NCBI RefSeq assembly: GCF_009914755.1
Contig: NC_060934.1
Direction: 5' to 3' (one strand)
DNA from: the human T2T-CHM13v2.0 reference genome, Homo sapiens
DNA: 64,000 bases
Positions 4,368 through 18,824 of the stretch are shown in pieces (position 1 is the stretch's first letter; every line of letters starts with the position of its first letter). The position numbers and the translations under genes are program-made. The notes under the pieces are model-generated. The model did not search any database, was not told where the DNA came from, and saw nothing but the letters and a program-made list of their open reading frames with translations.

Positions 4368-4452
4368 GGTGGGTATTCTGCTCCCTCCTTCTCTCCTTGG
4401 CAGGGCTCCTTCCAGGGGATCCCACGGACTGTTCCACCGCACCGCAGACAGA
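4368..4452 (+). CDS. CCSER2: CCSER2 85-nt cassette exon (3n+1) encoding GGYSAPSFSPWQGSFQGIPRTVPPHRRQ plus 1 nt
   Basis: Pyrimidine tract and acceptor ctccctaccccatctctctctgcacag| (AG 4366-4367); donor AGA|gtgagt at 4453. Open in phase 0, and the leftover A joins CC at 18006 to continue as T-SSTTAFQQPS...KATTYRGPQ*, which matches my recollection of the short CCSER2 C-terminus. TGCATG at 4513 and 4620 downstream. Confidence 0.85.
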
Positions 4453-5609
4453 GTGAGTCTGTGTCTCTCACTCCTATCCTGCTCTGGCTTCCCCTTCATG
4501 GTATTTCCCTTCTGCATGACCTGTTCCTCCCCAGCACCTCCTTTTCTATCCTGAGTGCTCTGCAGGCATCTGCTAAAGCAGCACTCTCTGTGGTCTCCTC
4601 TCTTAACACTTCCTTTTACTGCATGTAAACAGACCTCTACTTAGAGCCTTATGGAAGCTGTCTGAGGTTAATTTCATTCTAATACTGTTTAAACCTATTG
4701 CCAGTGACCCTAGACCTACTGACATGCATCTGTCTTTAATGCATTTTCAAAACCTTGAAATATGTGAATAAAAATTGTTGTGTTATCTAATTGTTTTAAA
4801 AAGTGTACATGTGATCTACAATGGTATGATGGACAGATGCATAATGTGTGGGGAGCAGGCTTACTAGACCATTGCACATTTCTTTAAATAATATTTCCTA
4901 ATTAAGGGCTTGGATTGCATTTCACTGTCATCTAAAATAAAGATATTTCTAATTGTTTTTTCTAAAAGTGGTTTAAAACAACTAAGATGTTTTTGTAATT
5001 TATCAGCTTTACAGCACAGAAGAAATGGCTTTTGAATATGCATGGTTTACTAACATTTCTAATGATTTAGTTACTGTTTGACCTTAAAATTTTTGTTTAT
5101 GTTAAATCTCTTTTCCAAAACAGTGTGGGTTATTTTGTTTTATGTACTTAAGTATGCCTGGTAAGTTGGTTATATTTTATCTTTTTTGAAAAGTCACCCA
5201 TAAAAAGCTATTATTAATGAAAATGAAGTGTAAATACAGTCAATCAGAGGTATTTTTATGCCTTCTCCAAGGATTTATCATGATTTGTGATTCATTCAAT
5301 TTTTTCATTATCCATTTCCATGTGAAGTATCAAAGGTGTCAAAGGAGGAAATTTTAAGCAATTAGGAATGTGATTTATTTAAAGAAAATTTTATTTCTTG
5401 AATTAGCCAAAATTATGAGGTATCGACATGAATTCCAGAGAAGGCATGAAGTTTATTTTTTGGCTGCTACACCTCTCCTTCCCTTCTGTACTTTTTGTTT
5501 TAAAGAAAAATCGTTTCTGTAGGCTTTTATGTGATGTTCTTTAGTAGCAAGTTCGTTTGTTTACTGGAAGCAATGAGAAAAGGAGTTTTTTTGTCCTCCT
5601 CCTTTTCTA

Positions 5610-5663
5610 TCTCCCACCACCTTGGTAACTCCTCCTTCTCCCACCACCTTGGTAACTCCTCCT
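5610..5663. repeat. Perfect 27-bp tandem duplication
   Basis: tctcccaccaccttggtaactcctcct at 5610-5636 and 5637-5663. Confidence 0.95.
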
Positions 5664-6313
5664 TTTCACTTCTCTCGTCTTCAAGTAAGTTGCTTTCTTT
5701 TCTCCTCTATTTAAATAATCCCAGCACAAAAAGAATCATACTAAAATGCTAGTCAAGTCATCTGAAATTTCAAAGGGCAGATACAACAAATTATATGTTC
5801 TTAGGCTTGTGGCCAGTAAACAGCAAGGTTTGAGATTTCCCCTCAGATTAGCACACCCACCTGTGTACTTACTCAAGCCCCCTTTTAGCCTGTATCCTTT
5901 TTTGTCACCATGTTCCTCCCCCTTTCTCCTTCTCCTCAGCTAGCTGTAATACGGAATTGAAGTTTGGGATTAATTATTCTGTATTACAAATAGAGTTTCA
6001 GCTTTACTTTTAAAAACATGTTTATCAGAAATACCCATTTCATTGGTTTATTTGTATAGCATTAGAATTTTCTTGTCTTTTCCTTGAGTCAGTGGCTCTC
6101 CATTTTCAAGTGCTTCTTCTCCTTCCTTCTTGGGTTCAGAGCTTTCCTTTTTGTTTCCAACTGTGAAGCAGCACTATCCTACAATTCCTACAATACTAGT
6201 AAGACCTGCTTTTTTTTTTTTTTAAACCTTTCTAGATCAAAACTTCTTTGCATCTTCAGATTAACAAAAAGAAAGTTTTGGTTCTCCAGAGTTTGGATGT
6301 ATTAGTCATCTAG

Positions 6314-6419
6314 GGAAAAAAAAAAAAATATATATATATATATATATATATATATATATATACTCATATATATACTCATATATATATATATATATATATA
6401 CTCATATATATATATATAT
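6314..6419. repeat. poly-A followed by (TA)n microsatellite with TACTCA interruptions
   Basis: Directly visible. Confidence 0.95.
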
Positions 6420-16926: not shown

Positions 16927-16980
16927 GTGTGTGTGTGTGTGTGTGTGTGTGAGAGAGAGAGAGAGAGAGAGAGGAGAGAG
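16927..16980. repeat. Compound (TG)n(GA)n microsatellite
   Basis: Directly visible. Confidence 0.95.
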
Positions 16981-18005
16981 ATAATGCATTTGTAGCAAAT
17001 ACCCCTGTATCAGGACAGGCCCAGTTGGCCCTGCCCATATATTTTAACTATTTGGGCCATTGAAAGATAGCTTTCAGATTTGTATTTTTTACTGGATACC
17101 CCCAAATCATGGAAATGGCATAGTTCCTCTGATTGTTTTTGAAACATAACTACACAATGAGCTTCAGGGAAGTACATGTGAGGCACACAGACCCTAAGAA
17201 CCTTGTCATAGGCTTCTGTTCTTTAGTTGCAGTTAGAGGCAACTTCACATTTGTTTTACTCTGAGCCATCATTCAAAAGGCTGATTATTCTAAATTTAAG
17301 TAAATGAATGTTTACTTTTCATTAGGGTAGATCTGTTTTTCACATGTCAGCCATAATAGGAGTGAGACAGAACAAATAAACTTTGAAACATTTTATTTGG
17401 AAACTTTTCAACAAGAATATTAAAAATAGGTTAGCATTAGCTAAATGTCTCGACCTATATTTGTTAAATAAATAGAATTTCACATAAACTGAGAATATAG
17501 TGATTTACTCTAAATCTTGTTTATCTGCTGGTGCTTTTCATTCTTGACAGAAGAACAACACTTGTTAACATGGTGTACAACTTTTTTTTTTAACTTTAAT
17601 GTAAGTAGTATTCCGAAGGTCACCGTTAACACCTGAATGTTTTGTGGAGGTTAAACCAAAAGCTGTAGAATCATTCTGTCAAGCTCTAAGGTTTAAAATA
17701 CCTAATGAATCTATTATGGCAGGAATTTTTTCTATAATAAATTAGTACTTTAATGTTTTCTTTTTCTCATTTAATTTTGGATCTTGTTCAGTGTTTACTG
17801 CCTGTATCATTTTTTGTTTGCATTATCACTCTTGTATGTGTCTAATTTGCTTGAATATTGCAGTTCATTTTTTAATTAAAAGAAACTCCACATATTTTCC
17901 ATATTAAAGCCATAATAAGTACCAACACAGCCTAATTGGTATTTATATTAAATCTGGGTGGAATTTCTAAGAACTTGCTGCTAATGTTGTTTTTAATTTT
18001 AACAG

Positions 18006-18100
18006 CCTCAAGTACTACAGCCTTCCAGCAGCCTTCCCAGACCCACAGATCACACCCAGGGAAAACTAATAAAGCCACAACGTATCGAGGCCCGCAGTGA
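18006..18100 (+). CDS. CCSER2: CCSER2 terminal exon, short frame (phase 1): (T)SSTTAFQQPSQTHRSHPGKTNKATTYRGPQ*
   Basis: Frame entered after a 3n+1 cassette; TGA at 18098-18100; peptide recalled as the end of the shorter CCSER2 isoform. Confidence 0.8.
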
Positions 18101-18824
18101 ATGCTCAATCCAAGACATGCATCAGGGCGGTGCACATCCGGAAGAAAGCTTTACACACGTCTTGCACCAAGAAAGCAACTATGGTTTGGAAGAGCAGCCT
18201 TTTTCATCAGGCCCACAATTAACAATGGATGTGGCTAAGAGTACACCTTCTGAAGCAAACTTAAACATTACTGTAAATGCTCAAGAGCCTTATCATTTGG
18301 CAAACAATCAAATTAGTGACATGCAGTTTATACCCACTTCTCTTCAGACACCTCCCGAGTCAAGTACAGTAGACCAGGCTAAGAGAGTTGGAAGAAATCA
18401 GTCTCCGCCAGTGGGTTATATGTCTCAGCCCAAGTCCTTGCAGCTTTTAAAGCCATCCATATTGAGTTCTTTGGTACCGCCTCCAGTTTCTGAATCATCT
18501 CCAAGTAGGACTCCCACTTGTAAAAAGTCACCAATAATCACAACATGTAATTCAGCAAAACTTCAGCCAACATCTAGTCAAACAAATCTTGCAAATAATC
18601 AGAATCTGAAAGCATCTAAGCTCCGCCCCCCCTCAGGCTCTTTCAAACAAAAACAAACAAACAGCCCCCAACTAGAGCCTCAAAGCTTCCAGGCCAAGAC
18701 AAGCATCCCAAGGCCACTAACACAACGAAAAGAAATCATGCAGAATCCAAATGGCAATTTGCATTCTGGGGATTGTTTGGCCTCTAATCGATATTCTCGT
18801 CTTCCTAAACCAAAGATACATTAA
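18006..18824 (+). CDS. CCSER2: CCSER2 terminal exon, long frame (phase 0): 272 aa PQVLQPSSSLPRP...KTSIPRP...YSRLPKPKIH*, S/P/Q/T-rich tail with SxIP-type motifs
   Basis: Acceptor gttgtttttaattttaacag| at 18005. The 235-aa ORF 18117-18824 extends in frame (37 codons) back to the acceptor. Stop TAA 18822-18824. Motifs SSLP 18027-18038, TSIP 18699-18710, SRLP 18795-18806. Confidence 0.88.
   Translation, partial: PQVLQPSSSLPRPTDHTQGKLIKPQRIEARSECSIQDMHQGGAHPEESFTHVLHQESNYGLEEQPFSSGPQLTMDVAKSTPSEANLNITVNAQEPYHLANNQISDMQFIPTSLQTPPESSTVDQAKRVGRNQSPPVGYMSQPKSLQLLKPSILSSLVPPPVSESSPSRTPTCKKSPIITTCNSAKLQPTSSQTNLANNQNLKASKLRPPSGSFKQKQTNSPQLEPQSFQAKTSIPRPLTQRKEIMQNPNGNLHSGDCLASNRYSRLPKPKIH

What the first reader, a model, noticed from the sequence alone, without database searches (positions are those of the whole stretch)
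4368..18824. Frame-switch system: 3n+1 cassette exons select which reading frame of the terminal exon is used, turning an SxIP-bearing tail on or off
Seen in sequence: the terminal exon (from 18006) has a 272-codon phase-0 frame containing SSLP, TSIP and SRLP in a basic S/P-rich context, a 31-aa phase-1 frame ending at TGA 18100, and a phase-2 frame ending at TAA 18069. The 85-nt exon converts phase 0 to phase 1. Established: [ST]x[IL]P motifs bind EB1 for microtubule plus-end tracking, and stops in the last exon escape EJC-dependent NMD. Inference: splicing acts as an NMD-free switch between a tail that can track plus ends and one that lacks these motifs. The incoming phase 0 is inferred because the upstream exon is outside the window. 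I recall both the long and short isoforms being annotated, so the novelty lies in the regulatory logic rather than their existence.
Basis: partly seen in the sequence, partly recalled or inferred. Interest (0 to 1): 0.8.

Follow-up and report, generated by a model that had tools for sequence, protein, structure and literature searches.

The report
CCSER2 three-frame terminal exon switch
Two small optional exons in the human CCSER2 gene decide which of three reading frames of the last exon is translated, giving three conserved protein tails, only one of which carries the microtubule-tip (EB1-binding type) motifs; this is real but already published.

Summary
The last CCSER2 exon (18006-18824) encodes a 272-aa frame-0 tail with SSLP, TSIP and SRLP. 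The other two frames stop at 18100 and 18069. The cassettes of 85, 133 and 40 nt are all 3n+1 and have AG/GT borders.

I rebuilt the upstream exons from the genome and confirmed that the incoming phase is 0. The resulting products are 1047 aa (skip), 834 aa (+85), 850 aa (+133) and 837 aa (+85+40, third frame). The 40-nt exon alone gives an in-exon stop.

All three tails are conserved across amniotes and in deeper unnamed relatives. The 85-nt exon peptide is identical to human in 78 of 118 proteins.

The system is not new. A May 2026 preprint describes this exon as triple-coding, with peptides and low dN/dS in all three frames. Two papers show SxIP-dependent tip tracking of the long form.

"On/off" is overstated. 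Two more conserved SxIP-like motifs (SKLP13, SFLP231) lie in the part common to all isoforms. One paper also reports two mouse isoforms at plus ends.

New leads: UGCAUG clusters sit downstream of both cassettes.

The parts
4368..4452 (+). 85-nt (3n+1) cassette exon; 28 codons plus 1 base in phase 0
   Evidence: Borders cag| and |gtgagt. Open in phase 0. Single copy in the genome. Its peptide is identical to human in 78 of 118 orthologous proteins, mean identity 0.985.
4453..4500 (+). 48-nt extension to an alternative donor, making a 133-nt (3n+1) exon
   Evidence: Donor g|gtattt after 4500. Open in frame. The extension peptide is present in mammalian predicted isoforms, for example 100% identity over all 44 residues in four listed proteins.
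4513..4625 (+). Two plus-strand TGCATG (UGCAUG) motifs at 4513 and 4620, 61 and 168 nt past the 85-nt donor
   Evidence: Only 1.2% of 300-nt windows in this 64-kb window hold 2 or more.
11853..11892 (+). 40-nt (3n+1) cassette exon. It has an in-frame TAG when entered in phase 0 and is open when entered after the 85/133-nt exon
   Evidence: Its peptide is present in 26 orthologous proteins that matched the pattern, mean identity 0.946.
11964..11990 (+). Cluster of three TGCATG motifs, 72-98 nt past the 40-nt exon donor
   Evidence: Only 0.44% of 300-nt windows hold 3 or more.
18006..18069 (+). Stretch of the terminal exon that is read in all three frames
   Evidence: The frame-0 residues here (776-796) are the best conserved part of the tail start, 0.889 against 0.542 for residues 807-1000.
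18070..18100 (+). Stretch read in two frames (0 and +1), ending with the +1 stop TGA 18098-18100
   Evidence: The +1 tail is 30 residues long in all 58 matched orthologues.
18006..18824 (+). Frame-0 coding part of the terminal exon: the 272-aa tail of the 1047-aa isoform
   Evidence: The reverse primer of Shirai et al. matches 18804-18824.
18027..18038 (+). SSLP (residues 783-786), inside the triple-coded stretch
   Evidence: Kept in 87 of 93 long orthologues.
18699..18710 (+). TSIP (residues 1007-1010), basic context
   Evidence: Kept in 92 of 93.
18795..18806 (+). SRLP (residues 1039-1042), five residues before the C-terminus
   Evidence: Kept in 92 of 93. The same C-terminal motif type ends 25 of 75 long, distant representatives.

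Best explanation
This is the 3' end of CCSER2 (Gcap14). It works as a conserved three-state splicing selector.

The four splice outcomes:
- Both small exons skipped: the last exon is read in frame 0. This gives a 272-aa, mostly poorly conserved, serine/proline-rich tail. Its conserved ends are the triple-coded start and a C-terminal block with TSIPRP and SRLPKPKIH, motifs of the EB1-binding type.
- The 85-nt exon (or its 133-nt form) included: the frame shifts by +1. This gives a 59-aa (75-aa) tail that stops at 18100.
- Both the 85/133-nt and the 40-nt exon included: the frame shifts by +2. This gives a 62-aa (78-aa) tail that stops at 18069.
- The 40-nt exon alone: translation stops inside that exon.

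All stops are in the last exon or within 25 nt of the last junction, so by the 50-55 nt rule none should trigger EJC-dependent NMD (inference from position).

The switch removes three of five conserved SxIP-like motifs. It replaces them with one of two strongly conserved short peptides of unknown partner. The Ndel1-binding coiled coil and the N-terminal SKLP and SFLP motifs stay in every form. I therefore read it as changing the number and placement of EB1-type motifs and swapping C-terminal modules, not as a plain on/off of tip tracking.

The anatomy, phases and conservation are shown here. EB1 dependence comes from published work. The effect on the short forms is inferred.
For: Anatomy and phases. 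Upstream exons rebuilt from the genome, 775 common codons, isoform lengths 1047/834/850/837/779.

Many primate predicted proteins of exactly 834 aa, and 853 aa for 133+40, appear.

Motif conservation in 93 long orthologues: SKLP13 93/93, SFLP231 86/93, SSLP783 87/93, TSIP1007 92/93, SRLP1039 92/93.

Tail conservation profile: 0.889 (776-796), 0.542 (807-1000), 0.78 (1001-1047), 0.92 (last 12 residues).

Short tails. Of 120 listed proteins, 60 read 85->+1 and 30 carry the 40-nt peptide and the +2 tail (a further 3 bird proteins in the 'other' class also read +2). They include birds, turtles and a lizard. Mean identities are 0.985, 0.90, 0.946 and 0.872.

Distant representatives (unnamed): 25 long tails ending in the motif, 10 of +2 type and 3 of +1 type among 75 of 450 aa or more.

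A processed pseudogene on chromosome 9 preserves the direct upstream-exon-to-terminal-exon junction.

Literature:
- Triple-coding exon with peptides and low dN/dS in all three frames (passages).
- Two SxIP regions needed for tracking, and EB1 co-immunoprecipitation (Results section).
- SxNN mutants lose comets but partly rescue migration (passages).
Against: I saw no junction reads, proteomics or isoform-specific localisation data. Isoform use rests on the hub's annotation, on predicted protein models (many are pipeline predictions) and on the preprint's statements.

Shirai's construct is residues 555-1047. It loses all microtubule binding when both tail regions are deleted. This fits a stricter on/off reading, at least when the N-terminus is absent.

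Whether SKLP13 alone supports tracking is untested. Zang's 1,4 double mutant cannot separate the two motifs. My assignment of their motifs 1-4 to SKLP13, SFLP231, SSLP783 and SRLP1039 is inferred, because their figure was not visible.

The identity of Mun's 'A85' isoform is unverified: the SI was closed and Hosono 2012 is not held.

SSLP783 lies in the triple-coded stretch, so its conservation may owe nothing to EB1.
Confidence: 0.8

Rival explanations
1. Strict on/off switch. Only the frame-0 tail confers EB1 binding and plus-end tracking. Isoforms with the 85-nt exon do not track.
For: All motifs that Shirai's deletions could have touched lie in the tail, because the construct starts at residue 555 and no [ST]x[IL]P lies in 555-775. 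Deleting both regions gave a diffuse cytosolic protein. TSIP and SRLP sit in basic contexts and are kept in 92 of 93 orthologues. Short tails lack the motif.
Against: SKLP13 is invariant as a motif in 93 of 93 orthologues. It sits in a basic context in the common part. S[KR]LP[KR] occurs near the N-terminus of 54 of 75 distant representatives. Zang et al. call motifs 1 and 4 the most conserved and mutated both together. Mun et al. state that two mouse isoforms both have plus-end affinity.
Confidence: 0.25
2. The alternative frames are not functional proteins. Their apparent conservation is a by-product of constraint on frame 0 or on splicing signals, and the cassette-containing mRNAs are splicing noise.
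For: The alternative open frames inside the last exon are short enough to arise by chance (P 0.21 and 0.36). Many supporting sequences are computational gene models.
Against: The cassette exons do not overlap frame 0, yet they are the best conserved coding pieces: 78 of 118 identical for the 85-nt peptide, and 0.946 for the 40-nt peptide. The stop position of the +1 tail is fixed, at 30 residues in 58 of 58. +1- and +2-type ends recur in distant representatives. The preprint reports peptides and low dN/dS for all three frames. In the neutral retrocopy, frame 0 already has stops by codon 21 and 23, and the stop positions of the other two frames are lost.
Confidence: 0.05
3. The main purpose of the cassettes is quantitative control of CCSER2 output, through unproductive or poorly translated mRNAs with a longer 3' UTR, rather than a change of protein tail.
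For: Inclusion lengthens an already long 3' UTR (about 4.25 kb, hub annotation) by about 0.7 kb. Long 3' UTRs can lower mRNA stability (general knowledge).
Against: The stops lie in the last exon or 25 nt from the last junction, so the classical NMD rule is not met. Amino-acid-level conservation of the cassette peptides and short tails is not needed for a purely quantitative device.
Confidence: 0.05

Closest known systems
The CCSER2 triple-coding exon as described in bioRxiv 10.64898/2026.05.28.727796 ('More than 100 dual coding regions...')
   Same: It is the same locus and the same logic. A single last exon is read in three frames by transcripts with different upstream exons. All three C-termini are conserved to jawed vertebrates, supported by peptides and under purifying selection (passages and the Figure 12B legend).
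   Different: The preprint says the function of the isoforms is not known and does not map the SxIP-like motifs onto the frames. This report adds four things: the exon-by-exon motif map (3 tail-specific, 2 common), the conservation profile, the retrocopy, and the UGCAUG clusters. I did not see its figures or supplements.
SH2B1 alpha/beta/gamma/delta isoforms
   Same: [quoted passage not shown] It is cited as the only other human gene with all three frames under clear selection.
   Different: Different gene family. The overlap covers two exons. Isoform-specific functions in neurite growth have been described for it, according to the preprint.
TCF7L2 alternative penultimate exons
   Same: A penultimate exon shifts the frame, so a stop comes early in the last exon and removes a functional C-terminal motif (the C-clamp of the long E isoforms) (passage in PMC13160074).
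   Different: Two-state use as described there. The motif lost is a DNA-binding aid, not a microtubule-tip signal.
SxIP/MtLS plus-end tracking proteins (Honnappa 2009 and Jiang 2012, as cited)
   Same: The long CCSER2 form carries [ST]x[IL]P in basic S/P-rich stretches. It co-precipitates with EB1, forms comets, and loses them on deletion or SxNN mutation.
   Different: Here three of the five motifs can be removed by a frame change in the last exon. I searched only CCSER2/Gcap14 papers, so I cannot say whether other +TIPs use the same device.

Membership tests
Multi-frame (dual/triple-coding) terminal exon selected by frame-shifting cassette exons | Upstream alternative exons whose length is not a multiple of three, with canonical splice sites | tested here: met
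   85, 133 and 40 nt, all 3n+1, with AG/GT borders. 85+40 = 3n+2.
Multi-frame (dual/triple-coding) terminal exon selected by frame-shifting cassette exons | Each alternative frame is open from the junction to a stop inside the shared exon | tested here: met
   Stops at 18824, 18100 and 18069. The incoming phase was verified from the rebuilt CDS.
Multi-frame (dual/triple-coding) terminal exon selected by frame-shifting cassette exons | Each frame is preserved in other species | tested here: met
   Amniotes. Unnamed distant representatives. The jawed-vertebrate depth and a loss in bats are taken from the preprint only.
Multi-frame (dual/triple-coding) terminal exon selected by frame-shifting cassette exons | Transcript and peptide evidence for each path | not testable with these tools
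   Only the hub's annotation, predicted protein models and the preprint's statement of PeptideAtlas support. No reads or spectra were seen.
SxIP/MtLS EB1-dependent plus-end tracking protein | [ST]x[IL]P motif present | tested here: met
   Five matches in the 1047-aa form: 13, 231, 783, 1007 and 1039.
SxIP/MtLS EB1-dependent plus-end tracking protein | Motif embedded in a basic, S/T/P-rich stretch with few acidic residues (the rule is recalled from Honnappa 2009 and Jiang 2012) | tested here: met
   TSIP: K+R 4, D+E 2. SRLP: K+R 4, D+E 1. SSLP: 2 and 1. The SKLP13 context was read.
SxIP/MtLS EB1-dependent plus-end tracking protein | EB1 binding and comet formation that depend on the motifs | not testable with these tools
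   Published for the long form: deletions and co-immunoprecipitation; SxNN mutants. Not published for the short forms, as far as searches show.

The most novel reading that the evidence does not exclude
The number of included 3n+1 cassettes (0, 1 or 2) acts as a modulo-3 counter under RBFOX-type control. UGCAUG clusters lie 61-168 nt and 72-98 nt downstream of the two cassettes.

On this reading, brain, heart and muscle would replace the EB1-binding C-terminus with one of two near-invariant short peptides. These peptides would recruit a different, still unknown partner. That would uncouple CCSER2's Ndel1/dynein gating from delivery by growing microtubule ends.

An RBPMS-type CAC cluster inside the 85-nt exon could add heart-specific control.
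Probability: 0.3. Interest if true: 0.55.

Novelty: already known. Interest (0 to 1): 0.3.

Why it matters
CCSER2 links EB1-decorated microtubule ends to Ndel1 and dynein regulation, and it is needed for cell and neuronal migration. According to the preprint it is one of only two human genes in which a single exon is under selection in all three frames.

Two points matter for experiments:
- Three of the five SxIP-like motifs are removable by splicing, while the Ndel1-binding coil is constant.
- The tools in use are isoform-specific. Shirai's antibody immunogen is exactly the 272-aa tail, and the cDNAs used are the long form.

These points affect how published knock-down, rescue and blotting results should be read. 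They also point to simple isoform-specific tests. As a discovery, though, it is a confirmation and refinement of printed work, not a new mechanism.

Tried and rejected
Papers and notes that could not be read:
The identity of the mouse isoforms 'AS/A85' and the exact deleted regions 'a' and 'b' therefore stay unverified.
- Hosono 2012 and the journal version of Zang et al. are not held.
- Earlier scan findings were not open.
- Two literature look-ups failed on term format. The first was resent with corrected terms. The resend of the second then failed because the paper is not held.

Searches that gave nothing useful:
- A 30-aa query for the +1 tail was below the tool's minimum. I used the stored 44-aa translation of the 133-nt exon instead.
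- I searched the genome for a paralogous tail or cassette. The tail matches only itself and the chromosome-9 retrocopy. The cassette region is single copy. A distant +2-type representative (P0345) mapped only weakly to CCSER2 itself, under a stricter first look. I therefore make no claim about CCSER1.
- Rfam found no RNA family in 3500-23500.
- The Goubert et al. preprint does not mention CCSER2 in its main text.
- A search for CCSER2 with Rbfox found no paper that links them in the text I saw (listing only).

Ideas rejected:
- ORF length as evidence for the short frames, and motif count as evidence for the SxIP claim. Neither beats chance on its own.
- Complex prediction was not used. EB1 is not in the window, and binding is already shown experimentally for the long form.
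Full report
**1. The observation**

The terminal exon starts at 18006, after ...ttttaacag. In frame 0 it runs 272 codons to TAA at 18822-18824. It encodes SSLP (18027-18038), TSIP (18699-18710) and SRLP (18795-18806). Read from 18008, it gives 30 residues and TGA at 18098-18100. 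Read from 18007, it gives 20 residues and TAA at 18067-18069.

The 85-nt exon 4368-4452 has a long pyrimidine tract (80% C/T in the last 60 nt), cag| and |gtgagt. A second donor after 4500 makes it 133 nt. Both versions are open in phase 0. The 40-nt exon 11853-11892 has an in-frame TAG if entered in phase 0. All three lengths are 3n+1.

**2. The incoming phase and the whole coding sequence**

The genome is held, and a search with the terminal coding part found a second copy on chromosome 9 at 82% identity. That copy is a processed pseudogene. Its upstream sequence runs straight into the terminal-exon sequence, it carries many stops, and it is 85% identical over the tail without gaps.

I used its upstream 1500 nt as a probe and found eight CCSER2 exons on chromosome 10. 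I then set their borders by AG/GT sites and by the retrocopy's junctions.

The last constitutive exon lies at window -17933..-17844 and ends on a whole codon. The coding sequence upstream of the window is 2325 nt, or 775 codons. Phase 0 is therefore confirmed.

The products are:

| Splice path | Length | Outcome |
|---|---|---|
| both cassettes skipped | 1047 aa | frame 0 |
| +85 | 834 aa | +1 frame |
| +133 | 850 aa | +1 frame |
| +85+40 | 837 aa | third frame |
| +133+40 | 853 aa | third frame |
| +40 alone | 779 aa | stop inside the 40-nt exon, 25 nt before the last junction |

Predicted primate proteins of exactly 834 and 853 aa appear. That 834 aa is the UniProt reference length is my recollection, not a call.

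**3. Three states, not two**

Because 85+40 = 3n+2, the two cassettes together select the third frame. Of the 120 proteins listed (154 had E<=1 among 159 candidates), the script classed them as follows:
- 60 as 85->+1 tail.
- 30 as carrying the 40-nt-exon peptide followed by the third-frame tail (23 with the 85-nt form, 7 with the 133-nt form).
- 23 as 133-nt forms with other continuations (+1 tails or read-through into the intron).
- 5 as other: three bird third-frame tails with a variant residue, one bat with a different inserted exon, and one lizard +1 tail.
- 2 had no anchor.

Many of these are pipeline predictions, so they show preserved open frames rather than proven proteins.

**4. Conservation**

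*Long form.* The search with the 272-aa tail returned 149 proteins at E<=0.001 among 1347 candidates, of which 120 were listed. I aligned the 93 that are at least 1000 aa and dropped the 27 shorter ones.

| Motif | Kept as [ST]x[IL]P |
|---|---|
| SKLP13 | 93 of 93 |
| SFLP231 | 86 of 93 |
| SSLP783 | 87 of 93 |
| TSIP1007 | 92 of 93 |
| SRLP1039 | 92 of 93 |

Mean identity to the orang-utan reference along the tail:

| Residues | Mean identity |
|---|---|
| 776-796 (triple-coded) | 0.889 |
| 797-806 | 0.668 |
| 807-1000 | 0.542 (0.30 for duck) |
| 1001-1047 | 0.78 |
| last 12 | 0.92 |

The long tail is thus a weakly conserved spacer between two conserved islands. The first island is constrained by three overlapping frames. 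The last carries TSIP and SRLP.

*Short forms*:
- The 85-nt-exon peptide is identical to human in 78 of 118 proteins (mean identity 0.985, minimum 0.857), including many birds.
- The +1 tail is always 30 residues long (58 of 58; mean identity 0.90).
- The 40-nt peptide has mean identity 0.946 (n=26).
- The third-frame tail has mean identity 0.872 (n=26).
- No [ST]x[IL]P occurs in 102 of 108 short tails.

*Deeper relatives.* A search of the 50%-identity representative library returned 202 proteins at E<=0.001, of which 150 were listed and none carried a name. Among the 75 of at least 450 aa:
- 25 end in [ST]x[IL]Px[PT]K plus one or two residues, even where the rest of the tail does not align.
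- 10 have the third-frame type of end.
- 3 end like the +1 tail.
- 37 could not be classed.
- 54 have S[KR]LP[KR] near the N-terminus.

For contrast, in the neutral retrocopy frame 0 already has stops at codons 21 and 23, and the stops of the other two frames are gone.

**5. Chance**

By length alone the short frames are unremarkable: P(open>=30) = 0.21 and P(open>=20) = 0.36. Three motif matches in a tail of this composition have P = 0.053 (shuffle mean 0.87). The case rests on conservation and on published experiments.

**6. What is in print**

The preprint 10.64898/2026.05.28.727796 (passages read) makes these statements:
- The CCSER2 exon gives three C-termini conserved at least to early jawed vertebrates.
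- All three C-termini have PeptideAtlas peptides.
- One frame is broken in bats.

Shirai et al. 2023 (Methods and Results read) cloned a cDNA whose reverse primer matches 18804-18824. Its forward primer starts at an internal ATG in the exon I call E4, the third exon of the coding sequence. Their 'full-length' protein is therefore residues 555-1047, and their antibody immunogen ('residues 222-493') is exactly the 272-aa tail. Deleting both SxIP regions abolished microtubule association. Each single deletion reduced comets. EB1 co-precipitated.

Zang et al. (bioRxiv version, passages) report four S-x-I/L-P motifs. Mutating all four, or 'the two most conserved (1,4)', reduced comets, yet the all-mutant partly rescued cell shape. 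Exactly four matches in my rebuilt 1047-aa protein begin with S (13, 231, 783, 1039), and 13 and 1039 are the best kept. I therefore infer that motif 1 is the N-terminal SKLP, which every isoform shares. Their figure was not visible.

Mun et al. 2023 (passages) state that mouse isoforms 'AS and A85' both show plus-end affinity. I could not learn what A85 is.

**7. Reading**

The frame-switch logic and the NMD-escape positions are right. The tail-specific loss of three motifs is also right. However, the common part keeps two conserved motifs and the Ndel1-binding coil (residues 657-687, which fall in a constitutive exon). The short tails are more conserved than most of the long tail.

I therefore favour 'module swap with reduced EB1-motif valency' over 'on/off'. 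I keep strict on/off as a live rival, because Shirai's N-terminally truncated construct depends wholly on the tail.

**8. New leads**

Plus-strand UGCAUG occurs 27 times in the 64-kb window. Two copies lie 61 and 168 nt past the 85-nt donor. Three lie within 27 nt, 72-98 nt past the 40-nt donor. None lies in the 300 nt upstream of either cassette or of the terminal exon. Only 1.2% and 0.44% of 300-nt windows reach 2 or more and 3 or more copies. Downstream UGCAUG is the classical RBFOX enhancer arrangement (established knowledge). The preprint mentions brain-specific CCSER2 transcripts.

The 3' part of the 85-nt exon has three CAC triplets, against 1.07 expected. A heart study reports an orthologous ccser2a/CCSER2 exon controlled by RBPMS2 in zebrafish and in human cardiomyocytes, but the exon is named only in a table I could not open. 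A chicken study reports regulated inclusion of a CCSER2 exon spanning chr6:1739585-1739670, which is 85 nt if the start is zero-based.

**9. Limits**

I saw no reads, spectra, figures or supplements. There is no orthologous DNA, so no codon-level selection test of my own. The representative proteins carry no taxon names. Literature searches covered only the held library.

**Verdict:** real, elegant and well conserved, but already described.

Noticed in passing
outside the window: G000 chromosome 9, 114690171-114693969 (L002): A processed pseudogene of CCSER2. It is 82-85% identical and has many stops. The last constitutive exon is joined directly to the terminal exon, so it is a fossil of the long (skip) mRNA.
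   Followed up: partly
window 11964-11990 and 4513-4625, + strand: UGCAUG clusters downstream of both cassette exons (three within 27 nt, and two within 170 nt). None lies upstream. This is an RBFOX-type intronic enhancer arrangement.
   Followed up: partly
window 4423-4442, + strand: Three CAC triplets in the 3' part of the 85-nt exon (about 1 expected). This may relate to the RBPMS2-regulated orthologous CCSER2 exon reported in PMC9770155, whose identity I could not check.
   Followed up: no
window 18019-18037, + strand: AGCCTTCC occurs twice, 11 nt apart, inside the triple-coded stretch. As a result S-L-P is encoded both in frame 0 (in SSLP) and in the third frame (in YYSLP).
   Followed up: no
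window 18006-18821 (tail) and L011 1549-1568: The 'full-length' construct of Shirai et al. equals residues 555-1047, and their antibody immunogen equals the 272-aa tail. That antibody cannot see the 834/837/850-aa isoforms, which may bear on their failure to see a clear band.
   Followed up: yes
protein P0153 (a Pteropus model): In this bat model a different, longer insert replaces the 40-nt-exon peptide but still leads into the third-frame tail. The preprint notes that one frame has stops in bats.
   Followed up: no
window 4453-4500: The 48-nt extension of the 133-nt exon form is translated identically in cat, aye-aye and capuchin models. It is absent from the listed bird isoforms, which cover only the first 28 residues of the query. 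It may be a mammalian addition, or it may be conserved as intronic regulatory sequence.
   Followed up: partly
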